From Mobula birostris (lineage: Eukaryota): a stretch of 64,000 bases of DNA. Position numbers and translations under genes: made by a program. A model generated the notes under the pieces. The model worked only from the letters and a program-made list of their open reading frames with translations. It was not told where the DNA came from and ran no database searches. Of the stretch, positions 9,250 through 64,000 are shown one piece after another (the stretch's first letter is position 1; the number at the start of each line of letters is the position of its first letter). The DNA lies in the NCBI RefSeq assembly GCF_030028105.1, contig NC_092375.1, positions 37,299,130 through 37,363,129 on the forward strand, in the 5' to 3' direction.

Positions 9250-9620
9250 CCCGTTCATCCCTCTCTTCTCTCTTATTAGCATTTTGAATGTTTCTCCATT
9301 GTCTTTCTTATCTCTCTCATTAGCATCATCCGTCCGGTAGCTCTGCTGGGCATCACACATGACATATCAGATTCATTCTTCTCCAGACCTTTACCTTTCC
9401 AACCCACCTGGCTTCACCTGTCACCTTCCAGCTATTCTCCTTTCCCTCCCCCACCTTTTTACTCTGGCATCTTTCCCCTTCCTTTTCAATCCTGAAGAAG
9501 GGACTCAGCCCACATGGTCGACTGTTCATTCATTTTCATAGATGCTGCCTGATCTGTTGAGTTCCTCCTGCATTTTGTGTGAGTTGCTTTGGACTTCCAG
9601 CATCTGCAGGCTTTCTCATG
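9250..9620 (+). mobile_element. Penelope-like element 3' end/pLTR (degenerate hammerhead)
   Basis: Pyrimidine-rich tract, then cctgaagaagggactcagccc...gtcgactg and the shared pLTR end gatgctgcctgatctgttgagttcctcc...ccagcatctgcag. Confidence 0.7.
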
Positions 9621-10429
9621 TTAACAAAAATACTTGCAGTGTTTTAATTACTTGCCAGCTTTTTCTCATCTTCAGTTTTCTCCCTGCTTACTGAACTCTT
9701 TGTCTTTTACCATTGGTTCCTGTAAAATTGTTAGTTGTCTGGTCTACCACAAGATCTCGCCGTATTATACATTTAACCTTTGATGAAATACTTTCTTTGA
9801 CCTCCTTTGCTAACTCTCTTTCTTCTATTTTAATGGGACACTTTTCTGCTGAATGCTATGAATTAACTATCTAAATAACTGGCTCTACTCATCTACTAAC
9901 TTATCCCTTAGTCTATTTAACCAGTCCAATCCAAACAACTCTATCTTCATACCATTGTAACAGCCTGGATTTAAGTGAGGACATTGGGTGTTCCTCCCCC
10001 AGGATTACGTGAAGTCAGAGTGTCCACACGGTTCATTTGGCTCATGGCTTCAGGGGTTTTCTCTCTCAGTTGCCAAATCTCCATTCCTGCTACATTGCCC
10101 TAATATGTGCTGTATCTCTAAATAAATAAAAATAAAATTAAACAAATATTATCAACTGCTTATGTGCATTAATAAAGTTTCTATCAGTCTCCCAGTAAAA
10201 CTGTGGCAAAGAAAATTCCTTTTCCACATTTGACCAGTTTCATTCTTTTAAAATCTGGCAACTTGCAGTTAAGCCTAATATTTGTGAATTTCTTTGGTCC
10301 ATACTTGTTTCCTGATGTATTAATGGACTTGCTATTCCCCAGATTTTATATGCATGAGCACATTTCTTAGGTGTAAATATACAAGAGGCATGACATAATG
10401 TTATTTTCTTTTCATATAATCTCAGAGCT

Positions 10430-17356: not shown

Positions 17357-17900
17357 TCCATAAGATACAGGAGCAGATATGGCCATTTGGCCCATCGACT
17401 CAGCTCTGCCATTTCATCATGGCTGATCCAATTTTCCTCTCAGCCCCAATCAACTGCCTTCCCCCCACTCCTCCTTCCCCGTTTCCCTTCATGACCTGAC
17501 CAGTCAAGAATCTGTCAACGTATGCCTTAACTATGCATAAAGACGGCCTCCACAGCTGCCCGTGGCAGAGAATACCACAGATTCACTGCTCCTTGGCTAA
17601 AGAAATTCCTTCTCATCTCCATTCTAAAAGGACACCCCTCTTTTCTGAGGCTGTCTCCTCTGGTCTTAGGCTCCCCCACCACAGGAAACATCCCCCTCTC
17701 ATCTATTGAGGCCTTTCACCATTTGACAGGTTTCAATAAGGTTACCCCTCATTCTTCTGAATTCTAGTAAATACATGATCAGAGCCATCACTCTTCATAT
17801 GACAAGCCATTCAATCCTGGAATCATTTTCATGAACCTCCTTTGAAGCCTCTGCAGTTTCAACACATCCGTTGTAAGATAAGGGGCCCAAAATTGCACAA
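17357..17900 (-). mobile_element. CR1 3' fragment
   Basis: Tail complement ccataagatacaggagcag; RT C-terminal remnants. Confidence 0.8.
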
Positions 17901-18111
17901 ACATCCAATTCCTCCAGAGGTAGTCTGCAGCACAAAATCTATCAATTAACTACTCACAGCAGACGTATTTAAGCAAATAATGGGTATATGTCATAATCTC
18001 ATGATACATCATTCTTACGTTTTCAGTCTATGTCTCCCATATTATGTTCTTGCTTCTCTGTTGTTACCCCCACTGTTACAGAGGCAATCCTGGAGCTAGC
18101 AGTGTTATCTC

Positions 18112-21100
18112 TGTGGTAAACCATATATATATGTTGTAACTGGGTTAACTGTCTGGACATGCCCCTCTGCTGACTGCCCCTGTGGCTCCTCCCACAGAGT
18201 CCTGTATAAAGGTGTTCGCCTTGCCCCTCCCCCTCAGTCCAGGGCCAGACACTCACCGTGGAGGTCGTATTGTACAGCGAATAAAATTGAAGCACCTTTA
18301 ATAACTCCAAAAGACTGAGGTTTGGTAAAATACTGAAAGGCTTTTATTCGCTGTACAATACGACCTCCATGGTGAGTGTCTGCCCCCGGACTGAGGGGGA
18401 GGGGCAAGGCGAAACACCTTTATACAGGATTCTGTGGGAGGAGCCACAGGGGCAGTCAGCAGAGGGGTGTGTCCAGACAGTTAACCCAGTTACAACGTAT
18501 ATATAGAAACATAGAAAATAGGTGCAGGAGTAGGCCATTCGGCCCTTTGAGCCTGCACTGCCATTTATTATGATCATGGCTGATCATCCAACTCAGAACC
18601 CCGCCCCAGCCTTCCCTCCATACCCCCTGACCCCCGTAGCCACAAGGGCCATATCTAACTCCCTCTTAAATATAGCCAATGAACTGGCCTCAACTGTTTC
18701 CTGTGGCAGAGAATTCCACAGATTCACCACTCTCTGTGTGAAGAAGTTTTTCCTCATCTCGGTCCTAAAAGGCTTCCCCTCTATCCTCAAACTGTGGCCC
18801 CTCGTTCTGGACCCCCCAACATCGGGAACAATCTTCCTGCATCTAGCCTGTCCAATCCCTTTAGGATCTTATACATTTCAATCAGATCCCCCCTCAATCT
18901 TCTAAATTCCAACGAGTACAAGCCCAGTTCATCCAGTCTTTCTTCATATGAAAGTCCTGCCATCCCAGGAATCAATCTGGTGAACCTTCTTTGTACTCCC
19001 TCTATGGCAAGGATGTCTTTCCTCAGATTAGGGGACCAAAACTGCACACAATACTCCAGGTGTGGTCTCAACAAGGCCTTGTACAACTGCAGTAGTACCT
19101 CCCTGCTCCTGTACTCGAATCCTCTCGCTATAAATGCCAGCATACCATTCGCCTTTTTCACCGCCTGCTGTACCTGCATGCCCACTTTCAATGACTGGTG
19201 TATAATGACACCCAGGTCTCATTGCACCTCCCCTTTTCCTAATCGGCCACCATTCAGATAATAATCTGTTTTCCTGTTTTTGCCACCAAAGTGGATAACT
19301 TCACATTTATCCACATTAAATTACATCTGCCATGAATTTGCCCACTCACCCAACCTGTCCAAGTCACTCTGCATCTTCTTAGCATCCTCCTCACAGATAA
19401 CACTGCCACCCAGCTTCGTGTCATCCGCAAACTTGGAGATGCTGCATTTAATTCCCTCATCCAAGTCATTAATATATATTGTAAACAACTGGGGTCCCAG
19501 CACTGAGCCTTACGGTACCCCACTAGTCACCGCCTGCTATTCTGAAAAGGTCCCGTTTATTCCCACTCTTTGCTTCCTGTCTGCTAACCAACTCTCCACC
19601 CACATCAATACCTTACCCCCAATACCGTCTGCTTTAAGTTTGCACACTAATCTCCTGTGTGGGACCTTGTCAAAAGCCTTCTGAAAATCCAAATATACCA
19701 CATCCACTGGTTCTCCCCTATCCACTCTACTAGTTACATCCTCAAAAAATTCTATGAGATTCGTCAGACATGATTTTCCTTTCACAAATCCATGCTGACT
19801 TTGTCCGATCATTTCACCGCTTTCCAAATGTGCTGTTATCACATCCTTGATAACTGACTCCAGCAGTTTCCCCACCACCGACGTTAGGCTAACCGGTCTA
19901 TAATTCCCCGGTTTCTCTCTCCCTCCTTTTTTAAAAAGTGGAGTTACATTAGCCACCCTCCAATCCTCAGGAACTAGTCCAGAATCTAACGAGTTTTGAA
20001 AAATTATCACTAATGCATCCACTATTTCTTGGGCTACTTCCTTAAGCACTCTGGGATGCAGACCATCTGGCCCTGGGGATTTATCTGCCTTCAATCCCTT
20101 CAATTTACCTAACACCACTTCCCTACTAACATGTATTTCGCTCAGTTCCTCCATCTCACTGGACCCTCTGTCCCCTACTATTTCTGGAAGATTATTTATG
20201 TCCTCCTTAGTGAAGACAGAACCAAAGTAATTATTCAATTGGTCTGCCATGTCCTTGCTCCCCATAATCAATTCACCTGTTTCTGTCTACAGGGGACCTA
20301 CATTTGTCTTTACCAGTCTTTTCCTTTTTACATATCTATAAAAGCTTTTACAGTCCGTTTTTATGTTCCCTGCCAGTTTTCTCTCATGATCTTTTTTCCC
20401 CTTCCTAATTAAGCCCTTTGTCCTCCTCTGCTGAACTCTGAATTTCTCCCAGTCCTCAGGTGAGCCACTTTCTCTGGCTAATTTGTATGCTTCTTCTTTG
20501 GAATTGATACTATCCCTAATTTCTTTTGTCAGCCACGGGTGCACTACCTTCCTTGATTTATTCTTTTGCCAAGCTGGGACGAACAATTGTTGTAGTTCAT
20601 CCATGCGATCTTTAAATGCTTGCCATTGCATATCCACCGTCAATCCTTTAAGTGTCATTTGCCAGTCTATCTTAGCTAATTCACGTCTCATACCTTCAAA
20701 GTTACCCCTCTTTAAGTTCAGAACCTTTGTTTCTGAAATAACTATGTCACTCTCCATCTTAATGAAGAATTCCACCATATTATGGTCACTCTTACCCAAG
20801 GGGCCTCTCACGACAAGATTGCTAATTAACCCTTCCTCATTGCTCAAAACCCAGTCCAGAATAGCCTGCTCTCTAGTTGGTTCCTCAACATGTTGGTTCA
20901 AAAAACCATCCCGCATACATTCCAAGAAATCCTCTTCCTCAGCACTTTTACCAATTTGGTTCACCCAATCTACATGTAGATTGCAGTCACCCATTATAAC
21001 TGCTGTTCCTTTATTGCACACATTTCTAATTTCCTGTTTAATACCATCTCCGACCTCACTACTACTGTTAGGTGGCCTGTACACAACTCCCACCAGCGTC

Positions 21101-21154
21101 TTCTGCCCCTTAGTGTTACGCAGCTCTACCCATATCGATATATGGTTTACCACA
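18112..21154. mobile_element. Inverted LTR pair: + strand U3-R arm (18112-18286) joined tail-to-tail to a complete - strand solo LTR (21154 to 18288, split by CR1); 5-bp TSD
   Basis: Termini TGTGGTAAACCATATA (18112) and TATATGGTTTACCACA (ends 21154); TSD atctc at 18107-18111 and 21155-21159; TATAAA 18205, AATAAA 18280; minus copy ends GGTGCTTCA at 18288; arms differ by about 7 substitutions and 1 indel in ~170 bp. Confidence 0.8.
18504..21138 (-). mobile_element. Young 5'-truncated CR1 (most of ORF2) inserted into the (TA)n tract of the LTR
   Basis: Long ORF pieces 20287..21189, 19537..20271, 18787..19191 with YRPP, GDxN, LDFQKAFDKV and KFADD motifs; tail (tttctatg)n. Confidence 0.92.
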
Positions 21155-21537
21155 ATCTCTAAATCCAGGAATGCAAAAACAAATGCCATTGGTCCTGTGG
21201 TGTTGGAGTTATCTCCATTTAAATAGCTATGAGGGGTCTTTATTTCTGAGCTGGGTGGCTCTGTTACACCGATCAGCAGGGATGGTTAATCGGGTGTGGA
21301 TACTCTTTGTCCCACAATTTGCTTTACAATACAAAATGTAAGCTAACACCACTCCTGCTTCAGGCTCGGCCCTTATGTTCATGCAGGGCTCCACTTCTGT
21401 CCCATGGGCTACAATGTAGCCTGAATGAAGATGAGGTCCTCTAGTTTCATGTTGGAAATTGTTGGAACAGTGTAGGAAGCTGAAGACAGAGAGATCTGCA
21501 TGGGGCAGAGATTTAAAATGAAAGGCGAGGGGAAGCA

Positions 21538-24379: not shown

Positions 24380-25170
24380 TCGATGTGGCCTCCTCTACTT
24401 TGGTGAGACTTGTCAAGCATCTCTGCTCCATCTGCGAAAAATGGAGCTTCCTAGTGGCCAAATATTTTAATTCTGTTTCTCATTTCTGTTCATGGCTTCT
24501 TCTGTCAAGATGAATATTGATTTCTCCTTACGGTATTTTTTCTTCCCTCCCCTGTCTTCTTCTGTTCCCCACCCTGGCCTTTAACCTCTTCTCAACTGCC
24601 TATCAGTTCTATCTGAGTTCCCTCCTCCTCCCCTTTCTCCTGTGGTCCACTCTCCTCTCCTTTCAGCTTTCCTCTTCTCCAGCCCTTTACCTTTCCCAAC
24701 CACCTGGCTTCACCTATCACCTTCCAGCTATCCTCCTTCCCCTCCCCTCTCCTTTTTATTCAGACATCTTCCCCCTTCCTTTTCAATCCTGAAGAAGGGT
24801 CTCGACCCAAAATGTCGACTGTTTATTCATTTCCATAGATGCTGCCTGGCTGCTGAATTCCTCCAGCATTTTGTGTGTGTTGCTTTGGATTTCCAGCATC
24901 TGCAAATTTTTTCTTGTTTGAAGATGTAAGAGGAGATGTTCTTCCTCAAGTTGAAGGTGGGTTTTGTTGCTACAAACAGAAAGATCAGAACTAGAGTGGG
25001 ATGGAGAATTAAAGTAACAGATAGCAGGGAGCTCAGGGATGTCCAGTGGACTGAACGTAGGTGCTGCACCAAGTGATGACCCAAACTCCATTTTGGCTTC
25101 TCCGAAGGGGAGGAAGCCATATTGTGAACACCTAATACAGTACACCAGATTTCTGCAAGTGCTATTTGAC
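24380..25170. mobile_element. Two Penelope-like fragments in opposite orientation (+ 24380-24925 with pLTR; - 24930-25170 GIY-YIG)
   Basis: CGLLYFGET remnant on +; NLVYCIRCSQ...LQLEEEHL on -; degenerate hammerhead cctgaagaagggtctcgacccaaaatgtcgac at 24788-24819. Confidence 0.75.
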
Positions 25171-25957: not shown

Positions 25958-26170
25958 TACAGTGGATTCCAGTTAATTGGGATACATGGGGACCAGTACA
26001 ATTTGGCCCAATTAAACAGCTGCCCCAATTAGCCAGTTTCATGGAAATACAGTAGTTAAAAAGGTTTCAAAAAAAGACAGTCTACCATATAACTGAGTAA
26101 CAAATTATGTATTTAAATAAAATGCAGAATAAATTAGGACACTATCAATACTACTACAGTACTATAAAAG
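25958..26170 (+). mobile_element. Tigger/pogo-like DNA transposon 5' end
   Basis: TA followed by CAGTGGATTCCAGTTAATTGGGA, a pogo/Tigger-like TIR start; cut off by the PLE at about 26175. Recognised by pattern only. Confidence 0.45.
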
Positions 26171-26174
26171 CACT

Positions 26175-26880
26175 CATACAAAATGCTGGAGGAACACAGC
26201 AGGCCAAGCAGCATCTATGGAAAAGAGTAAACTGTCGATGTTTCGGGCCAAGACCCTTCATCCAGACTGGAGAAAAGAAGGTGAAGAGTCAGAGTAAAAT
26301 GGTAGGGGGAGGGGAGGGAGAAACACAAGGTAATAAGTGAAACTGGGAGGGAGGAGAGTGGTGAAGTAAAGAGTTGGGAAGTTGATTGGTGAAAGAGATA
26401 CAGGGCTAGAGAAGGAGGAATCTGATAGGAAAGGACAGAAGGTCATGGAAGAAAGAAAAAGGGAGAGGAGCACCAGAGGGAGGTGTTGGGCAGACAAGGA
26501 GATAAGGTGAGAGAGGGAAATGGGAATGGTGAATAGAGAAGTTGGGGGGGGGCATTACCAGAAGTTCAAGAAGTCGAGGTTCATGCCATCAGGTTGGATC
26601 AGCTTGTTGAGGTAGTGAAATTGTTTCGTTTTCACTCCTGGCCGTTTCTGGCATCTCCAAATCTGGACGCTTGAAACCCTAGTGAGCAAAACAGTTCCAA
26701 ATTGTCTTAAACATGATAAAGTCTGCAGATGCTGGAAATCCAAAGCAACACACACAAAAATGCTGGGGGAGCTCAGGAGGCCAGGCATCATCTATGGAAA
26801 TTAATAAACAGTCAATGTTTCGGGCTGAGACCCTTGTTCAAGACTGAAAATGAAGGGGGAAGACACCAAAATAAAATGAG
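26175..26880 (-). mobile_element. Penelope-like 3' end plus pLTR copies (26175-26620; 26705-26880)
   Basis: LIQPDGMNLDFLNFW* end of ORF; two hammerhead-like motifs on the minus strand (about 26232-26270 and 26811-26846). Confidence 0.75.
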
Positions 26881-33234: not shown

Positions 33235-33543
33235 GCACATTGAAAGGAAATGAGACTCATACTGTGGCAATCACTTGCAACTATTCCTCTATTAATGATC
33301 AAAATCTCACAATTGTGTGGAGATTTAGAAAATCGTCAGACTCTCCTCCAGTAGTAATTTGTCAATCAGTGCCTCAGTATGTCGATAAGTCAGATTGCGG
33401 TAACAACCAATTAAAAATACGAACTAGCCATAATTCGTCATCACTTACACTACACCATGTGATGAAGGAAGCTGCAGGCGAATATACCTGTGAAGTTAAA
33501 ACAGAAGATACGTTGAAAATATTCACCTATATACTACAAATAG
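33235..33543 (+). CDS. HHLA2: HHLA2 exon: second IgV-like domain (309 nt, phase 1-1)
   Basis: Acceptor ttttaattttttag, donor ATAG|GTAAGC; VAITCNY...LTIVWRF...SSLTLHHV..EAAGEYTCEV. Confidence 0.88.
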
Positions 33544-37129: not shown

Positions 37130-37362
37130 TTAACACACATCAAAGTTGCTGGTGAACGCAGCAGGCCAGGCAGCATCTGTAGGAAGAGGTGCAGTCGACG
37201 TTTCAGGCCGAGACCCTTCGTCAGGACTGCAACGTCTCAAAAGGGTCTCGGCCTGAAACGTCGACTGCACCTCTTCTTAGAGATGCTGCCTGGCCTGCTG
37301 CGTTCACCAGCAACTTTGATGTGTGTTGCTTGAATTTCCAGCATCTGCAGAATTCCTGTTGT
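37130..37362. mobile_element. Fold-back Penelope-derived mini-element with 12-bp TSD
   Basis: 87-bp inverted arms 37132-37218 and 37241-37327 (2 mismatches); TSD tcagggttctat at 37118-37129 and 37363-37374. Confidence 0.88.
37191..37230 (-). ncRNA. Minimal type-I hammerhead ribozyme motif (intact core)
   Basis: GCAGTC-CTGACGA-AGG-GTCTCGG-CCT-GAAAC-GTC^-GACTGC: 6-bp stem I, CUGANGA and GAAA cores, 3-bp stem II, palindromic ACGT in place of stem III, GUC cleavage triplet. Confidence 0.7.
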
Positions 37363-37800: not shown

Positions 37801-37856
37801 ATGTCCTAGGTCGTTGCAGCCCTACTAGTTAAAGTAAGCAACATTGCCTATGGCAA

Positions 37857-37986
37857 ACAAAAGAAAATCTGCAGATGCTGGAAATCCAATTAACACACAA
37901 AATACTGGAGGAACTCAGCAGGCCAGGCAGCATCCATGGAAAAGGGTACAGTTGATGTTTCGGGCCAAGACCCTTCAGCAGGACAG
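37857..37986 (-). mobile_element. Penelope pLTR fragment
   Basis: ctgcagatgctggaaatcc...tttcgggccaagacccttcagcaggac; hammerhead core variant CTGCTGA. Confidence 0.75.
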
Positions 37987-38164
37987 CTCTGGATTCAAAC
38001 AAAGACCAGACTGAGAAGGTACAGCAAATTTCCTTTCTGTAAAGGAACCAGAAGGTCTTTTAGCAAGCCATTGTTTCATTGTCGGTATTAATGATATACA
38101 GTAAGTGTGTTATGTCAAATTAATGTAATTAGCTGACTGGATTTAAATATTCAAGGCACCATTT

Positions 38165-39485
38165 CAAAGTTCAAAGTAAATTTGTTATCAAAGTGCATAT
38201 ATGCCACCATATACAACCCTGAGATTCATTTTCTTGCAGGCATACTTAATAAACCCATACTAGAATAATAACCATAATGGAATCAATGAAAGACCGCACC
38301 AACTGGCCGTTCAACCAGTATGCAAAAGACAACAAATGGTGAAAATACTAAATAAATAATAATAAATAAATAAGCCATACATATCAAGAACACGAGAAGG
38401 TGTGGGGAGGGTGGGAAGGAGAAGGCTGGTAGGTTCCAGGTTAATAACCAGTAAGGGGAAAGATAAAAGGGTGGGGGGGGGGAAGCCTTCCCTTCTCCTT
38501 CCCACCCTCCCCCCACCTTCTTTATAGGGCCTCTGTCCCTTCTCTCTTCAGTCCTGACGAAGGGTTCTGGCCCGAAACGTTGACTGATCATTTCCACAGA
38601 TGCTGCCCGACCTGTTGAGTTCCTCCAGCGTGTTGTGAGTGTTGCTTTGACCCCAGCATCTGCAGAGTATTTTGTGTTTAAAGACATGAGATAAAGGGCT
38701 CTTGAAAGTAAGTCCATAGATTGTGAGCACATTTTCATGGCATCCTCAGTGAAGTTGAATGAAATTATCCTCTTTGGTTCAAGAGCCTGATGGTTGAAGG
38801 GTAATAACTGTTCCTGAACCTGGTGGTGTGAGTCCTGAGGCTTCTGTACACCTTCCTGATAGCAGCAGCAAGAAGTGAGCATGACCTGGTGGTGGGGGCC
38901 CCAGATGATGGTTGCTGCTCGCCTGTGACAACACTCTATGTAGATGTGCTCAATGGTGGGGAGGGCTTTTCCCGTGATGGACTGGGCCATATTTACTACT
39001 TTTTGTAGGATTTTCTGTTCAAGGGCATTGGTGTTTCCATACCAGGCTGTGATGCTGTAAGTCAATATATTCTCCACTACATATCTATAGAAGTTTGTCA
39101 AAGCTTTAGATGTCATGCTGAATCTTTGCAAATTCCCAAGGAAGTAGAGGTGGTGCCAGGCTTTCTTTGTAATTGCACTTTCATGCTGGGACCAGGACGG
39201 GTCCTCTGAAATAATAAGACTGAGGCATTTAAAGTTGCTGACCCTCTCCACTTCTGATCCTCCGAAGAGGACTGATCCACAGGCCTCTGATTTCCTTGTC
39301 CTTAAGTCAATAGTCAGCTCCTTGGTCTTGCTGATATTGAGTGAGAGGTTGTTGTGGCACCATATGCAAATTCGTCACCACTTTGGTTCAGCCTACGACA
39401 GTGCTGTCGTCAACAAACTTAAATATGGCATTGGAACTGTGCTTAGCCACTCAGTCATAAGTGTAAAGTGAGCAGAGCAGGGAGC
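38165..39485 (-). mobile_element. Rex1/Babar fragment with a nested Penelope 3' fragment (+, about 38400-38680)
   Basis: ORF 38283..39251 fuses Rex/Babar (FKCLSLIISEDPSWSQH...KKAWHHLYFL) with read-through of the PLE insert; (TTCAAAG)n tail complement at 38163-38176. Confidence 0.75.
38548..38587 (+). ncRNA. Minimal hammerhead motif on the HHLA2 sense strand (variant)
   Basis: TCAGTC-CTGACGA-A-GGG-TTCTGG-CCC-GAAAC-GTT^-GACTGA: 6-bp stem I, intact cores, one unpaired A before stem II, GUU triplet. Confidence 0.55.
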
Positions 39486-43005: not shown

Positions 43006-43648
43006 TTTAAAAAACATATTTAGAAATTGTCTATTTAAGTAGGAACTATTTAGTTTATTTAATTTTTTATTTTATTTTTTGTCTATTTAGTCTGTTGTTG
43101 CATTCTCCAGTTTTTTATAACATATTCCAATTATTCTTTATAAATCATGTATTGAATAACATTTCCATAAAATGCTTTCTGACATTGGCCTTACATTTCC
43201 AAGGATGTTCAAGTAACTGGAAAGCTTGAATTGTAAGAATACAGGTATATTGTATAGGCTGGTTCTTGATTAGCAAGGGTATCAAAGGTTATGAGAAGGT
43301 AGGAGAATAGAGTAAAGAGGGATAAGTCAGCTATGATGGAATGGTCTTCTGGTCTAACGTAATTTGCCAAAGGATGGGAAACTAGAGATTGTCATATAGG
43401 AGTAGGCAGGCATGATGGGCTAACTGGCCTTTTCCTCTACCACATCAATCCAATAATGCCGCTATTAATTTGATTATATAGTTGAGAATTTATTTATGTG
43501 CATGATTATGATATACTGTGCTGTAAGTCTACTGGTATTTCAAAATCATTTATTGAATTATTGCCCAATCACTTTCTTTAGAGTATTTTCATTGACTGAA
43601 ATGGAATAAAAATCAGAATATATGGGAAAAAAAGCAGCTTAATTGTTT

Positions 43649-43861
43649 CAACCAACACACATCAAAGTTGCTGGTGAATGCAGCAGGCCAAGCAGCATCT
43701 CTAGGAAGAGGTACAGTCGACGTTTCCGGCCGAGACCCTTCATCAGGACCGAAACGTCGACCGTACCTCTTCCTAGAGATGCTGCCTGGCCTGCTGCGTT
43801 CACCAGCAACTTTGATGTCTGTTGCTTGAATTTCCAGCATCTGCAGAATTCCTTGTTTGCG
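43649..43861. mobile_element. Second fold-back Penelope-derived mini-element with 13-bp TSD
   Basis: Same subfamily as 37130-37362; TSD agcttaattgttt at 43636-43648 and 43862-43874; arms turn around at caggac|c|gaaacgtcgac (about 43750). Confidence 0.88.
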
Positions 43862-52713: not shown

Positions 52714-53550
52714 ATGTCTATGTCTACAAGAAGTGGGATAAATTTACCTGAACCTAGTGATAAAGGTAATGGGAAAGGAAAGGTGCAAAAGGAAAGATCT
52801 GATGAAATGCCATCGTGGGCTGAAGATATCGTTCGGACACTGAATTCAATTAAGGATCAGAATGGATCAATTAAAGACCAACTGGAAAAGAATAGTAATG
52901 AAATGAAGTCATTTCTGGGAAAACTTAAAGACCTGGAAACTCAAGTTATTTCACACAAAGAGGAATTGAAGATAACTAAGCAAAAGCTGTCTGAAGTTAC
53001 AACTCGTTTGGGAAGATATCAAAATAAGATTATAGACCTGGAAACTAGGTCTCGATGAAGGAATATAAGAATTGTTGGGCTGCAGGAAGGAGCTGAAGAT
53101 GCAGATCTAACGGCTTACTTTGGTAAGCTTTTCCACACTTTATTTCCTACCATTCTATCAAAGCCGCCTGCTATCGAAAGGGCACACAGGGCGTTTATCT
53201 CGAAATCGAAGGACTCTAGTAAACCAAGATCTGTTCTGGTTTGCTTTCATCACTTTAAAATTAAAGATCAAATAATACGACAGGCAAGAAAACAGAGAGT
53301 TTTTAGATCTATGGAATCTGAGCTCCGCTTCTATGAAGATTATCCAAGAGAGATAATGGAACAAAGATCAAAATTTGCCCTGGTAATGAAACAAGCATAT
53401 GATAAGAATCTTTTCCCGTCTCTGAGGTATCCGACAAAACTTAAAATTTTCCCTCCTAATTCTCCTCCTCGTACTTTTTTTGATCCAAAGGCTGCACTGG
53501 ATTTTGTTCAGGCTTTGCCTGCCGCTGTCACCGACACCACTGTTGAATGA
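52714..53550 (+). pseudogene. L1 ORF1p (coiled coil, RRM, CTD) with one nonsense codon
   Basis: DLETRSR*RNIRIVGLQEG (TGA 53056-53058, probably from CGA); IERAHR...PRSVLVCF; LRFYEDYP...LRYPTKL. Confidence 0.9.
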
Positions 53551-54286
53551 TCCATCTGAAAGGCTGTTTGGCTATTTCTTTATTATTTGCATTTTGGAAA
53601 GAAGATTTATGAAGGTCACTTGTATATTTCATCGACAGACTAATTAAAGAACACGAGGAGTTGTTTTTTATTGCATATTATTGGTTTTCCTTTGGAAAGA
53701 TTTACGGTTTAAGTATCTCTGCTCAAATGATCTCTGGACATTTTATGACTGAGGGAAGAAGATAAGGCCATTTGTTCCTTTAATTTAATAATACTTCGTA
53801 GCTAATTGGTAGTTTTTCCTACTAATAGGGCTTTTTATATATTTTTCTGTTCTATTGTAACATTTTAGAACTGAATTTAAAGCTTTTTTTAGGGAATTAA
53901 TATTAAACTTAAACATGGCACTGGTTTTTCTCTCTAAGAGATAATATTATTTTGGTTCTTTCTTGTTTATTAGTCGATGGAATGTTAATACCTTTTTTTC
54001 CTGAGACTTTATTGTCTTTCTCACAAGGTCACTCTACTTTTTTACTAACTGGGGGGAGGGAAAGAAAACAGACAGAGCAGTCAGCAGCTTTGAATTCTAT
54101 CGTAGATCGCTTGCCTTTTTTGGGTTTCTGGGTGTGGGTGGGTGGGCTTAGAGTTAGTTTTTTCCCATTGGGTGGTTCCGGAGCATGCGTGTTTTTTATT
54201 TGGTTGTATTCTTCATCGCCACCATCTTTGATCATCCTGCACTGGTATGTGCTTTGTGCATGTATAAAGTAGAATGAAATCATAGT

Positions 54287-57200
54287 ATGTTGTTCAAACG
54301 GATTAATATGATAAGTTGGAATGTACGTGGTTGGAATCATCCTACTAAACGAAAGAAGACTTTTAAAATTATTAACCGATTCCAACCTGATATAATTTTT
54401 GCTCAAGAGACACATATCAGGGCGGGAGATCAAAGTAGATTTTTTAGATGGTGGAATGGTTTGCAATTCCACTCCACTTCTCAGAGTAAAACAAAAGGCG
54501 TGTCTATTTTCATTAAACCTAATATATTTATTCAAGAGGATATTGAATCAGATTCTAATGGTAGATTTTTAATTGTTAAAGGAACAATCTGTAATAGAAA
54601 AGTTGTTTTGGTTAATTTATATGGTCCTAACTTAGATGATCCTTTTTTTAAAAAGGTATTTGCTTTACTGCCTGACTTAAATGAATATATGCTCATAATG
54701 GGTGGGGATTTTAATTGTTGTTTAAATCCTATGATTGATAAGAGCTCAACCAATCAGCGACTTCCAAATCAATCCGCGTCATTTATTAATTCCTTTTTGA
54801 TTGATTTTGGGTTGATTGATTTGTGGAGGTATCTTCATCCCGACAATAGAGAATATTCTTTCTTCTCAAACATTTATAAAAAATATTCGAGGATCGATTA
54901 TATTATAATCGATCCCCGCTTCTTGCCTAGTGTTAAAACCTGCGAATATGACGTTATTGCTATATCTGATCATGCGCCTCTGAGTTTGTCTTTTGAATTT
55001 GATGATGTCACTCTTGCCCACCCACCTTGGCGCATGTCTCAGACATTATTGCAAAACTCTGACTTTGTCACTTTCATTGAAACCCAGATAAAGGAATTTT
55101 TTCTTTTTAAAGATATAGGGGGTATGCCTAAATTAGTTATATGGGATACATTTAAAGCATTTTTACGCGGTCAGATTATTTCTTATTCAGCTAAACTTAA
55201 AAAACAAACTAAAGCAGAATTAGATAGAATTTTAAAACAAATTAAAGATTTAGATAATATTTATGCAATTTCCCCAAATACTAGTTTATTTAAACAAAGG
55301 GTGGAACTTCAATCACAATATAACCTGTTATTAACTCATCCCATTGAAGGTTATTTGCTTAAGTTAAAGAGCCAATTTTATATGTCTGGAGATAAAAATA
55401 ATAAACTGCTTGCATCTCAATTAAAAATGGCTGCAGACAAAAGTAAATCATGAAAATTCGTAGGAAAGATGGTACCTTAGCTCAGGAATATGAGGAAATT
55501 AATAAGATTTTTCAAGACTTTTATGCTGAGCTATATAAATCTCAATGTCCGTTAGATTCCTCTAAAATGAATGCTTTTTTTTTACGAAAGATTGTTTTTC
55601 CTAAAATCTCGGCTGAGGATCAAAAGATTCTCAATGCTCAAATTACTGAAGCCGAAATTCATAAGGTTATTTTTTCAATGCAATCTGGTAAGTCCCCAGG
55701 ACTTGATGGCTATCCCGTAGAATTTTATAAAAAATTTGGAAAGTTGCTGTCTCCGTATATGTTGGAAATGTTTAAGGATTCTTTTGTGAAAGGTGACTTA
55801 CCCTCTACTTTTTATGAGGCCTCTATTTCTTTAATTCTTAAAAAAGATAAAGATCCTACAGACTGTACTTCATATAGACCTATTTCATTACTGAATGTTG
55901 ACGCTAAGATTTTGTCAAAGATAATGGCCAATCAGTTGGAGAATATTTTGGGTAAAATTATTTGTAAAGATCAAACAGACTTTATAAAGGGCCATTATTC
56001 CTTTTCAAATGTTCGGAGACTACTTAATATTATATATTCATCCTCTTCTAAAATTCCACAATGTGTTGTATCTTTGGATGCTGAAAAAGCGTTCGACCGA
56101 GTCGAATGGAAATATTTATTCAATGTTTTAGAGAAATTTGGCTTTGGTGTTAATTTTAATAATTGGATTAAAATGATATATAAAGCCCCTATTGCTACTG
56201 TTGTTACTAACAATTGTAGGTCTCCTTTTTTTTCAGCTTTCACGGGGGACAAGGCAAGGCTGTCCATTAAGTCCTTTGTTGTTTAATTTAATATTAGAAC
56301 CCCTTGCTATTGCTCCTCGTGAGGCTAAAAATATCCATGGGATATTTGTGAATGAGACCATGCATAAGGTCTCTCTTTATGCTGATGATTTATTGGTTTA
56401 TATATCTAACCCTGACGAATCCATTCCTGCCCTGTTAAAATTATTTAATGAATTTGGAGGCTTTTTAGGATATAAAATTAATTTTAGTAAAAGTGAATTA
56501 TTTCCTTTATATGATTCTGTTTCTATATATGATAATACTCCTTTTAAAGTTTCAGACTCTTTTAGATATTTAGGTATTGTAATTACTAAAAGATATAAGG
56601 ATCTTTATAAAGCTAATTTTGTTCCCTTAGTAGACCCTATGAAGTATTTATTTAGTAGATAGAGTCCACTTACATTTTCACTTGTTGGTCGCATTCATAT
56701 AGTTAAAATGATGATTCTACCGAAATTTTTATATTTATTTCAGAATATTCCTGTTTTTTTGACTAGGAAGTTCTTTGATCGGATTGATTCTATTATTTTA
56801 TCTTTTATTTGGAATAATAAAAGACCAAGGATCAGTAAATGTCATTTACAAAAATTGAAAAAGGATAGAGGTCTTGCTTTGCCTAATTTTAGAATGTATT
56901 ATTGGGCTGTTAATCTGCGATATATGTCTTTTTGGTTATACTGGGTTGATAAGAGTGATCGGCCAATTTGGGTAGATCTGGAACTAAAAGTTGTAAAACA
57001 GTTTTATTTAACTTCATTATTGGGGGCTCCTTTACCTATGCAATTAGGTAAAGTTGTTAATTTAAACTTATATCCTGCGATTAAGTATCCTTTACAAATT
57101 TGGCTCCAGTTCCGCAATTCTTTTAATCTTATAAAATTTAAACTATGTAGTTTAATTTACCAAAATTACTTTTAAGCCTTCTTTGAGTGATCCAATTTTT

Positions 57201-58064
57201 CTACTTTGGTAAAATAAAGGTATTAATTCTTTTTTGGATTTATTTATAGAAGATAGATTGATGTCCTTTGAACAATTAACTGATAAATATTCTCTTTCAT
57301 ACTCACACTTTCTGCAATACCTTCAATTTAGACATTTTTTACAAAAATATTTAAGTAATTTCCCTTACATATTGGAGGCTGACCTGTTAGATACTATTAT
57401 GAGTATGAATCCTTTGAGTAAGGGTTCTATTGGAAGAATTTATAATTTATTATTACAATGGGATAAGCGTCCTTTGTCTAAGATTAAACAGGATTGGGAA
57501 AAGGAACTTAATTTGACTTTTATGACGGAGGATTGGATGCGGATATTGAAGTTGGTTAACTCTTCTTCAATTTGTGCTAGCCATTCATTGATTCAATTTA
57601 AAATTGTACATCATTATCATTTGACAAAGGAGAGACTTTCTAAAATCTTTCCTAATGTTGATAGTCATTGTGATAGATGTAAAACTGAGATAGCTACACC
57701 GACACATATGTTTCGGTCTTGTTCTATATTGGAACAGTTTTGGAAGTCGGTTTTCTCAACAATTTCTAAAGCACTTAAAATTAATTTACAACCTAATAAA
57801 TTAACTGTGCTTTTTGGAATAGTTCCTCAAAATATTCATGGTACTTCTGTGTCTGACCAACATGTTATTGCATTTGTTACATTGATAGCTAGGAGGGCCA
57901 CTTTGTTGAAGTGGAAGGATACATCAGCTCCCACTTTGTCACAATGGTTCTCTCAAGTGATGCTATGTCTTAGTTTGGAGAAAATTAGTAGTCGAACCTT
58001 TGAACCTTTATTTGATTTTGAGAAAAGATGGGGCTCATTTACTCGTTATTATCATTTGAGTTAA
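54287..58064 (+). pseudogene. L1 ORF2p (APE endonuclease, RT, CCHC) with at least 3 frameshifts and a stop
   Basis: ISWNVRG, GGDFN, SRIDY, SDH; KSPGLDG, YRPISLLN, LDAEKAFDRV, RGTRQGCPLSP, LYADD; CDRC...THMFRSC. Confidence 0.92.
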
Positions 58065-59131: not shown

Positions 59132-60133
59132 TATAGTTGTTTACAATATATATTAATGACTTGGATGAGGGAATTAAATGCAGCATCTCCAAGTTTGCGG
59201 ATGACACGAAGCTGGGTGATAGTGTTAGCTGTGAGGAGGATGCTAAGAGGATGCAGAGTGACTTGGATAGGTTGGGTGAGTGGGCAAATTCATGGCAGAT
59301 GCAATTTAATGTGGATAAATGTGAAGTTATCCACTTTGGTAGCAAAAACAGGAAAACAGATTATTATCTGAATGGTGGCCGATTAGGAAAAGGGGAGGTG
59401 CAACGAGACCTGGGTGTCATTATACACCAGTCATTGAAAGTGGGCATGCAGGTGCAGCAGGCGGTGAAAAAGGCGAATGGTATGCTGGCATTTATAGCGA
59501 GAGAATTTGAGTACAGGAGCAGGGAGGTACTACTGCAGTTGTACAAGGCCTTGGTGAGACCACACCTGGAGTATTGTGTGCAGTTTTGGTCCCCTAATCT
59601 GAGGAAAGACATCCTTGCCATAGAGGGAGTACAAAGAAGGTTCACCAGATTGATTCCTGGGATGGCAGGACTTTCATATGAAGAAAGACTGGATGAACTG
59701 GGCTTGTACTCGTTGGAATTTAGAAGATTGAGGGGGGGATCTGATTGAAATGTATAAAATCCTAAAGGGATTGGACAAGCTAGATGCAGGAAGATTGTTC
59801 CCGATGTTGGGGAAGTCCAGAACAAGGGGTCACAGTTTGAGGATAAAGGGGAAGCCTTTTAGGACCGAGATTAGGAAAAACTTCTTCACTCAAGAGAGTG
59901 GTGAATCTGTGGAATTCTCTGCCACAGGAAGCAGTTGAGGCCAGTACATTGGCTATATTTAAGAGGGAGTTAGATATGGCCCCTGTGGCTACGGGGATCA
60001 GGGGGTATGGAGGGAAGGCTGGGGCGGGGTTCTGAGTTGGATGATCAGCCATGATCATAATAAATGGCGGTGCAGACTCGAAGGGCCGAATGGCCTACTC
60101 CTGCACCTATTTTCTATGTTTCTATGTTTCTAT
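59132..60133 (+). mobile_element. Young CR1 3' kilobase, same subfamily as 18504-21138
   Basis: ORF 59137..59748 (KFADD...HLEYCVQFWSP); about 97% identical (7 differences in the ~215 nt compared) to the 18.5-19.5 kb copy; (tttctatg)n tail. Confidence 0.92.
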
Positions 60134-63806: not shown

Positions 63807-64000
63807 AAACAGATGTGGAAATCCAAAGCAACACACACAAAAACTCAGCAGGACAGGCAGCATCTATGGCAAAAAGTGAATAGTTGACATTTCGGGCTGA
63901 AGCCCTCCAAAATTCCAGATGAAGGGTCTTGGCCCAAAACGTCGACTGTTTACTTTTTTCCACAGATACTGCCTGGCTTGCTGAGTTTCTACATCTGGTT
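63807..64000. mobile_element. Older fold-back Penelope pLTR element (runs to the window edge)
   Basis: Inverted arms aaactcagcaggacaggcagcatctatgg / ccacagatactgcctggcttgctgagttt; turn-around about 63905-63915 within a decayed hammerhead. Confidence 0.7.

What the first reader, a model, noticed from the sequence alone, without database searches (positions are those of the whole stretch)
18107..21159. Inverted LTR dimer integrated through two U3 ends with a single 5-bp TSD: an LTR behaving like a TIR element
Seen: with the 2.6-kb CR1 removed, a ~410-bp element begins TGTGGTAAACC and ends GGTTTACCACA, flanked by ATCTC on both sides. It is a complete solo LTR on the minus strand (TG...CA, TATA box, AATAAA) fused tail-to-tail to a second U3-R copy cut right after AATAAAA. 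The ~175-bp arms are about 95% identical, and several differences look like CpG decay, so they were probably identical at insertion. Known: LTR integrases join TG...CA ends and make 4-6 bp TSDs, normally using one U3 and one U5 end. Inferred: plus-strand strong-stop DNA snapped back at the TTTTATT/AATAAAA complementarity and copied U3, and the U3/U3 palindrome was integrated. If it has many copies, it is an LTR-derived fold-back family mobilised in trans (Ginger-like behaviour).
Basis: partly seen in the sequence, partly recalled or inferred. Interest (0 to 1): 0.75.

Follow-up and report, generated by a model that had tools for sequence, protein, structure and literature searches.

The report
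Palindromic LTR dimer from self-priming retrotransposon
Two inverted copies of a retrotransposon's terminal repeat sit in this genome as one insertion with a single 5-base target duplication, and because the parent element's primer site pairs with its own repeat, the dimer is likely a by-product of reverse transcription that the integrase pasted in by two identical ends, a possible route from retrotransposon ends to DNA-transposon-like inverted repeats.

Summary
A complete ~232-bp LTR (minus strand, split by a 2.6-kb CR1-type LINE) is fused to an inverted 175-bp U3-R copy. The unit lies between two ATCTC, and the arms match at 156 of 164 columns. Public contigs show a high-copy LTR family with free U5 ends. 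The left junction is filled in two organisms and apparently empty in a third. New here: 14 contigs in three runs show the parent's 5' LTR followed by a 17-nt tract, 16 nt of which pair with its own R region through AATAAAA. So the parent has a self-complementary primer site, not a tRNA site, and the dimer junction is that site. Best reading: plus-strand cDNA annealed PBS-to-R, was copied out to U3, and was integrated by two U3 ends. Two arm differences are family alleles (3-5% of depth), so the arms were probably not identical at insertion. That favours two templates, or an older dimer, over one-molecule snap-back. An excess of U3 over U5 flank junctions (145:32 in one run) hints at many dimers, but no second dimer was seen directly. 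Movement as a unit and the parent's superfamily are untested.

The parts
18107..18111 (+). Left target-site duplication ATCTC
   Evidence: Sequence; flank-to-element junction present in contigs of runs X1 and X5 (table 8)
18112..18286 (+). Left arm: U3-R copy from TG to the end of AATAAAA, no U5
18205..18210 (+). TATA box of the left arm; initiator-like TCAGTC at 18234-18239, 31 nt downstream, gives a predicted start at 18236
   Evidence: Motif positions; start site inferred from spacing, not measured
18271..18287 (-). 17-nt tract that in the parent follows the 5' LTR (primer-site position); 16 nt are complementary to R through AATAAAA; the dimer junction
   Evidence: Shared loose end at 18271 in 5, 7 and 2 contigs of X1, X5, X10; 16-nt complement not reached in 20000 shuffles; folds
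18288..18505 (-). Complete LTR, part 1: U3 remainder, R, AATAAAA (18342-18348) and U5 ending in CA at 18288
   Evidence: 32 contigs of X5 and 2 of X10 leave the element at 18288 into mixed flanks
18506..21137 (-). Later insertion of a 5'-truncated LINE (CR1-type, name recalled) into the (AT)n tract of the right arm
   Evidence: Pfam PF14529 and PF00078; 97% copy at 59135-60122
21138..21154 (-). Complete LTR, part 2: terminal 17 bp of U3 starting TG
   Evidence: 17/17 complementary to 18112-18128
21155..21159 (+). Right target-site duplication ATCTC
   Evidence: Sequence

Best explanation
This is an inverted LTR dimer (U3-R joined to a reversed whole LTR) inside one 5-bp target duplication, likely formed during reverse transcription of a predicted self-priming LTR retrotransposon and likely integrated by that element's integrase through two U3 ends. 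Shown: the anatomy; the parent's 5' LTR is followed by a tract complementary to 16 nt of its own R ending in AATAAAA; the dimer's junction is exactly that tract. Inferred step 1: the R segment is the RNA self-primer, Tf1-style, so plus-strand strong-stop DNA ends in its complement. Inferred step 2: that 3' end anneals to an R region instead of making the normal second jump, and RT copies R and U3 out to the terminal TG. The partner is more likely a second plus-strand cDNA from another template than the same molecule, because the arms carry different family alleles. Two antiparallel strands overlapping by 16 bp would also give a double-stranded palindrome in one step, with no hairpin to open. 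Inferred step 3: integrase accepts U3+U3 and makes the usual 5-bp staggered cut. A LINE inserted afterwards. Each dimer would then be made afresh from helper cDNA and not move again.
For: Single TSD around two precise TG..CA U3 ends. Junction coincides with the parent's primer-site tract: shared loose end at 18271 in 5 of 373, 7 of 413 and 2 of 31 partly laid contigs of X1, X5, X10, agreement 0.91-0.97. The 16-nt complement is beyond all 20000 shuffles, maximum 13. R-U5-tract folds into a 16-bp stem as RNA (z -3.6) and DNA (z -4.5); without the tract z is +0.9. The family is a real LTR family: U5-CA ends with mixed flanks (32 contigs X5, 2 X10), and L001 is a 203-bp related LTR preceded by 15 purines in 20 nt and without a TSD, as a 3' LTR would be. 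Organism C has a 908-nt contig that follows the left flank to 18107 and continues 670 nt unlike the element, which fits an empty site (table 8). Right-arm alleles 18199A (3.1%, 4.6% of depth) and the extra T after 18214 (4.7%, 4.5%) occur in both organisms, while the left arm's private 18245C is at most 0.2-0.4%. Self-priming by LTR-PBS pairing is established for Tf1 and predicted for Tj1, Tcn1 and TAR (PMC7175516, PMC4600332, PMC6317226, passages).
Against: No second dimer was seen directly: no listed contig reads across the junction beyond the 17-nt tract (32 of 7274 pieces shown). The empty-site letters were not printed and the match stops at 18107, so a single ATCTC is unverified. Self-priming is inferred from sequence only; no compensatory changes could be counted because L001 has no 5' end. 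The paired R segment lies about 35 nt behind the predicted start site, unlike Tf1's first 11 nt. Allele shares come from contig depths, which the tool says are not copy numbers, and linkage of the two alleles in other copies is not shown. Gene conversion onto one arm, or descent from an older dimer, would give the same pattern. Eight arm differences are also about what age alone could give, as the flank differs by 5 of 228 between organisms A and B. U3 and U5 ends share only 4 of the first 5 bases, and in vivo U3+U3 integration was not found in my searches.
Confidence: 0.62

Rival explanations
1. The dimer arose once or a few times as above, then spread as a non-autonomous TIR element moved by a Ginger-like transposase or the parent's integrase. 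This copy descends from a master whose arms had already diverged.
For: Termini TGTGG fit the Ginger TGTNR pattern and 175-bp arms fall in the 40-270 bp TIR range (PMC2836005, parts 1-3 of 5). Left-arm and right-arm minor alleles have shares of similar order: 18160T 7-10%, 18199A 3-5%, extra T 4.5-4.7%; 18241A 20-23%, 18161A 30-31%. Mixed-flank loose ends favour the U3 end: 145 vs 32 in X5, 7 vs 2 in X10, 150 vs not listed in X1.
Against: The TSD is 5 bp ATCTC, not Ginger1's 4-bp CCGG/CCGT or animal Ginger2's 4 bp (PMC2836005). No transposase was found or could be sought in this genome. Integrases do not normally excise (PMC2836005, discussion). A transcript of the dimer has no sense 3' R, so RNA copying as a unit is not natural (inference). 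The end excess fits repeated de novo dimers equally well and may be biased by the variable (AT)n near the U3 end; 194 of 218 loose-end rows were not shown.
Confidence: 0.2
2. A normal element integrated here first. A replication template switch at the 16-bp PBS/R inverted repeat later copied R-U3 backwards and rejoined at the terminal CA, deleting the internal region and 3' LTR.
For: The 16-bp stem exists in every genomic 5' LTR and folds as DNA, so the first switch point is natural. A single TSD would be kept.
Against: The second switch must land exactly on the terminal CA with about 2 nt of homology and include no inverted host flank; none is present. It predicts identical arms, yet they differ at family alleles.
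Confidence: 0.09
3. An ordinary MITE with long TIRs whose TATA, AATAAA and TG..CA motifs are coincidental; no LTR involved.
For: The overall shape (TIR-spacer-TIR with TSD, about 410 bp, high copy) is MITE-like.
Against: One arm plus the spacer exists alone as an LTR: L001 aligns to 18288-18483 at 74% and has a purine-rich tract before its TG. The spacer's CA end joins host flanks in 32 contigs of X5, and the parent's internal sequence follows the 17-nt tract.
Confidence: 0.04
4. Assembly or library artefact (fold-back chimera).
Against: The arms differ at 8 of 164 columns, one arm holds a 2.6-kb LINE, both ends carry the TSD, and the left junction is present in two organisms.
Confidence: 0.03

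Closest known systems
Tf1/Tf2 of Schizosaccharomyces pombe, Tj1 of S. japonicus and the Tf1/sushi group; predicted self-primers in plant Tcn1 (Gypsy) and TAR (Copia)
   Same: The primer site right after the 5' LTR pairs with sequence inside the LTR instead of a tRNA (PMC7175516, PMC4600332, PMC6317226; passages read).
   Different: Tf1 pairs the first 11 nt of the RNA. Here 16 nt ending in the poly(A) signal pair, about 35 nt behind the predicted start, so the hairpin would also mask the 5' LTR's AAUAAA (predicted fold). Integrated U3/U3 dimers are not mentioned in the passages I read. The parent's pol was not obtained.
Ginger1 and Ginger2/TDD DNA transposons
   Same: TGTNR termini, TIRs of 40-270 bp, integrase-type ends. 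Bao et al. suggest Ginger1 TIRs could come from two LTRs in opposite orientation (PMC2836005).
   Different: No transposase; 5-bp TSD instead of 4-bp CCGG/CCGT or RTATAY targets (only TDD-4/5 have 5 bp). The TIRs here are demonstrably LTR U3-R, made by PBS pairing rather than by a second insertion. Movement as a unit is not shown.
Solo LTRs and TRIMs; GalEa-type Copia LTRs
   Same: Non-coding, TG..CA, 5-bp TSD; LTR length near the 235-bp mean of fungal GalEa (PMC5445492).
   Different: The repeats are inverted, not direct; there is no PPT or internal domain; the primer site is neither metazoan GalEa's TGGTAGCAGAGC nor the fungal hairpin site downstream of the LTR.
DIRS retrotransposons
   Same: Retroelement with inverted terminal repeats.
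   Different: DIRS integrate by a tyrosine recombinase without a TSD (PMC5941688, passage); this unit has a TSD and integrase-type TG..CA ends.

Membership tests
LTR of an LTR retrotransposon | TG...CA ends with TATA box and AATAAA in U3-R-U5 order | tested here: met
   about 232 bp on the minus strand
LTR of an LTR retrotransposon | U5 end joins host DNA in solo or 3' LTRs | tested here: met
   32 mixed-flank contigs at 18288 in X5, 2 in X10; L001
LTR of an LTR retrotransposon | Polypurine tract before the 3' LTR | tested here: inconclusive
   L001, a 74%-identical relative: 15 purines in the 20 nt before TG; one example
LTR of an LTR retrotransposon | gag-pol between two direct LTRs (superfamily: Copia, Gypsy or BEL) | not testable with these tools
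   No own genome; no internal protein available; RVT_2 absent from the G001 stray contigs
Tf1/sushi-type self-priming elements | PBS complementary to the element's own LTR, not a tRNA | tested here: met
   16 of 17 nt complementary to R; no TGG start; tRNA sets not searched
Tf1/sushi-type self-priming elements | Primer is the first about 11 nt of the transcript | tested here: inconclusive
   Predicted start 18236 puts the paired segment at +36 to +51; start site not measured
Tf1/sushi-type self-priming elements | Chromovirus (Ty3/gypsy) polyprotein; RNase H-dependent primer cleavage | not testable with these tools
   No parent protein; needs biochemistry
Ginger1 / Ginger2 non-autonomous element | TGTNR termini and 40-270-bp TIRs | tested here: met
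   TGTGG; 175-bp arms
Ginger1 / Ginger2 non-autonomous element | 4-bp TSD (CCGG/CCGT, or within RTATAY) | tested here: not met
   5-bp ATCTC; only TDD-4/5 have 5 bp (PMC2836005)
Ginger1 / Ginger2 non-autonomous element | Copies spread as a unit, with an autonomous partner sharing the ends | tested here: inconclusive
   End excess and allele shares fit but do not separate models
Metazoan GalEa Copia | PBS TGGTAGCAGAGC | tested here: not met
   Tract after the LTR is the R complement; GalEa PBS from PMC5445492 and PMC3587641
DIRS | No TSD; tyrosine recombinase integration | tested here: not met
   5-bp TSD and TG..CA ends

The most novel reading that the evidence does not exclude
Palindromic U3/U3 dimers are the commonest integrated form of this family, in hundreds to thousands of copies, and at least some lineages move as a unit. 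A self-priming LTR retrotransposon would then have spawned a TIR family by a defined, repeatable route: a living intermediate between LTRs and Ginger-type terminal inverted repeats.
Probability: 0.2. Interest if true: 0.85.

Novelty: new variant of a known kind. Interest (0 to 1): 0.62.

Why it matters
It is a germline insertion whose anatomy says an LTR integrase joined two U3 ends in vivo. It also gives a concrete route from LTR to terminal inverted repeat, a step that Bao et al. (PMC2836005) called unclear for Ginger1. Annotation pipelines would file such copies as MITEs. Separately, the parent shows a self-primer that overlaps the poly(A) signal, so one hairpin may both prime reverse transcription and silence the 5' LTR's polyadenylation. 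Both points can be tested on any assembly of the host. If dimers are common, each is a promoter-flanked 175-bp hairpin and a potential source of double-stranded RNA.

Tried and rejected
Own genome: none held, so copies could not be counted. No second copy in the window. Pattern scans: metagenome contigs 0 twice; viral contigs 0 for the U3 motif. A 16-nt junction motif gave 120 viral loci, none matching beyond 39 nt, so chance. Genome contigs gave 1 stray vertebrate-type contig, L001; 1 of 46 genomes of that genus match, with no further copy in G001 and no RVT_2. A protein search with a frame across the junction found no candidate. No RNA holder is on record; X10 is only guessed to be RNA, so nothing is claimed on expression. 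Rfam MIR4372 match is far below its cut-off (41.7 vs 100 bits) and is taken as a hairpin artefact. Depth across the junction does not drop as it does at the spacer's far end (bin ratios 0.99 and 0.85 vs 0.42 and 0.46); 5' LTRs and diverged subfamilies confound this, so I do not count it. L001's R-U5 alone has no notable fold (z 0.25). Earlier findings: nothing by sequence or place, nothing on inverted dimers. Literature searches for inverted LTR units found no description; two hits were incidental mentions in cucumber and grape. The library lacks most subscription papers and Repbase, so absence in print is not shown. A FASTA supplement of PMC11889832 could not be read and may hold the parent. 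My recollection that such ends belong to a marine Copia clade comes from no call and was not confirmed.
Full report
OBSERVATION. The sequence is as described. ATCTC flanks the unit at 18107-18111 and 21155-21159; it begins TGTGGTAAACC at 18112 and ends with the reverse complement at 21154. A 5/5 match at two fixed ends has a chance of about 0.0012. The arms 18124-18286 and 18342-18505 align over 164 columns with 7 substitutions and 1 indel; 5 of the 7 are at CpG-type sites. The terminal 17 bp match 17/17 across the LINE. The LINE (about 18506-21137, minus) has endonuclease and RT domains and a 97% copy over 988 bp elsewhere in the window. It sits in the (AT)n tract of the right arm, so it came later. 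That it is CR1, and that the host is a cartilaginous fish, is recalled from the tail repeat and comes from no call. Read on the minus strand the unit is: whole LTR (U3-R-U5, about 232 bp, TG..CA), one A, then reversed R-U3 from AATAAAA back to TG.

IS IT AN LTR? No genome is held, so I used public runs. Twenty of 24 listed runs hold part of 17700-18345, in 10 studies and 8 organism labels. I laid contigs of 4 of them on 17910-18345 at 85% likeness. Summed depth rises from 6-12 on the flank to about 10^5 on the element in X1 (organism A) and X5 (organism B). The tool warns this is no copy number, but the family is plainly high-copy. Contigs leave the element into mixed flanks at the TG end (X1 48+102, X5 53+92, X10 7) and also at the U5 CA, position 18288 (X5 32, X10 2). 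So the U5 end is a real integration end. A pattern scan found one stray 508-nt contig in a bacterial assembly, L001; that assembly also holds pieces of the same LINE at up to 93%. L001 carries a single 203-bp relative of arm plus spacer (74% over 199 columns). It has TATA and AATAAA, 15 purines in the 20 nt before TG and no TSD, which fits a 3' LTR. An ordinary MITE is therefore unlikely.

THE PARENT'S PRIMER SITE. In X1, X5 and X10, 5 of 373, 7 of 413 and 2 of 31 partly laid contigs read from U5 across the junction to 18271 and then continue into one shared non-LTR sequence (agreement 0.91-0.97); none is listed for X9. Read by eye, that sequence has an ATG 10 nt past the tract. This is the parent's 5' LTR and leader. 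The 17 nt after CA equal window 18287-18271, and 16 of them are complementary to R through AATAAAA; 0 of 20000 shuffles exceed 13. A primer site that pairs with the LTR is the mark of self-priming, shown for Tf1 and predicted for Tj1, Tcn1 and TAR. The difference: a TATA box at 18205 and an initiator-like TCAGTC 31 nt later put the start at 18236, so the paired segment is +36 to +51 and includes AAUAAA, not the first 11 nt. The hairpin would mask the poly(A) signal in the 5' LTR only. Start site, cleavage and priming are inferred.

THE SITE IN RELATIVES. Contigs run from the left flank into the element in X1 (0 differences; possibly the source sample, so not independent) and X5 (5 differences in 228). 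The insertion thus predates the split of A and B. In X9 (organism C) a 908-nt contig follows the flank to 18107 with 18 differences and has 670 further nt unlike the element (table 8; I read the record coordinates by analogy with the X1 record). That fits an empty site, but the letters were not printed and a single ATCTC is unverified.

WERE THE ARMS IDENTICAL? Family allele shares (X1, X5): the left arm's 18245C is at most 0.2% and 0.4%, the level of a private change. The right arm's 18199A is at 3.1% and 4.6%, and its extra T after 18214 at 4.7% and 4.5%; neither is at a CpG. The CpG-type differences 18161A (31%, 30%), 18241A (about 22%, 20%) and 18160T (about 7%, 10%) are also common, while other CpG sites show 3-9% or are unlisted. 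18132 and 18258 are not listed (under 3%). Both arms share the minority 18148A, so they come from one broad subfamily. The simplest reading is that the arms came from two templates or from an already diverged dimer. Against this: the shares are contig depths, linkage is not shown, gene conversion is possible, and 8 differences are not too many for the age.

ARE THERE MORE DIMERS? Solo and full-length elements give one TG-flank and one CA-flank junction each; dimers give two TG. Listed rows give 145:32 in X5 and 7:2 in X10; in X1 150 TG ends are listed and no 18288 row is among its six. Only 24 of 218 rows were shown, and the variable (AT)n near TG may favour detection there. No listed piece (32 of 7274) reads through the junction beyond the 17-nt tract. 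This is a hint of many dimers, not a count.

MECHANISM. Plus-strand strong-stop DNA copies U3-R-U5 and then the self-primer, so its 3' end is complementary to R. If it anneals to R on a second plus strand and both 3' ends extend, the product is U3-R-reversed(U5-R-U3), double-stranded, with two exact U3 ends: the observed unit. Snap-back within one molecule gives the same sequence but identical arms and a hairpin that must still be opened. Integrase then makes the 5-bp cut with U3+U3. I give 0.62 to this de novo origin (about two thirds of it to two templates), 0.20 to spread as a TIR unit, 0.09 to a post-insertion template switch, 0.04 to an unrelated MITE and 0.03 to an artefact.

COMPARISON. 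It works like a self-primed LTR element's cDNA and looks like a Ginger-type TIR element, but it fails Ginger's TSD test and has no transposase. It fails GalEa's PBS and DIRS's no-TSD rule. The parent's superfamily is open. Bao et al. call the LTR-to-TIR step unclear and suggest two LTRs that happen to lie in opposite orientation; PBS-driven dimerisation would be a defined alternative. Searches found no report of an inverted LTR unit within one TSD; the library is incomplete. Four earlier AI notes describe self-complementary primer sites in Copia elements of other genomes; they are unchecked leads.

PAPERS SEEN. PMC2836005: parts 1-3 of 5 of the text. Passages by term search only: PMC6317226, PMC4600332, PMC5445492, PMC3587641, PMC5941688, PMC11889832 (plus its supplement list; no supplement read), PMC6238403, PMC3601003, PMC6934838, PMC7175516, PMC2774666, PMC4600303, PMC7166211, PMC2857682. 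All others: search listings only.

VERDICT. It is a new variant of known parts. Interest 0.62; it rises to about 0.85 if dimers prove numerous and mobile as a unit.

Noticed in passing
window 37132-37327 and 43647-43830; related pieces at 9377-9622, 24673-24924, 26167-26341, 26703-26878, 37853-37987, 38493-38686, 63810-63993: A second, unrelated family of about 200-bp self-inverted (fold-back) repeats, 91.5% and 88% palindromic, with many partial copies in the window.
   Followed up: no
window 33240-33515 (+): Immunoglobulin V-set domain, likely an exon of a host gene among the repeats.
   Followed up: partly
window 53059-58064 (+): Long LINE with endonuclease- and RT-like frames in several pieces, L1/Tx1-like by recall.
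   Followed up: no
window 59135-60125 (-): LINE copy 97% identical to the one inside the right arm, so that subfamily is young.
   Followed up: partly
L001-L007 (G001 small contigs): A bacterial reference assembly carries stray vertebrate-type contigs: this LTR family and the same LINE at 68-93% identity; 1 of 46 genomes of the genus match the LTR.
   Followed up: partly
window 18150-18210 as laid with run X9: Organism C has a related LTR subfamily with summed depth near 10^6 on this U3 stretch but diverged ends and R; L001 resembles it.
   Followed up: no
window 18337-18342 with 18294-18299 (minus strand): A predicted 6-bp stem continues the primer hairpin into U5, recalling the U5-IR-like structure named for Tf1 in a cited title; it is absent from the RNA centroid in part.
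   Followed up: partly
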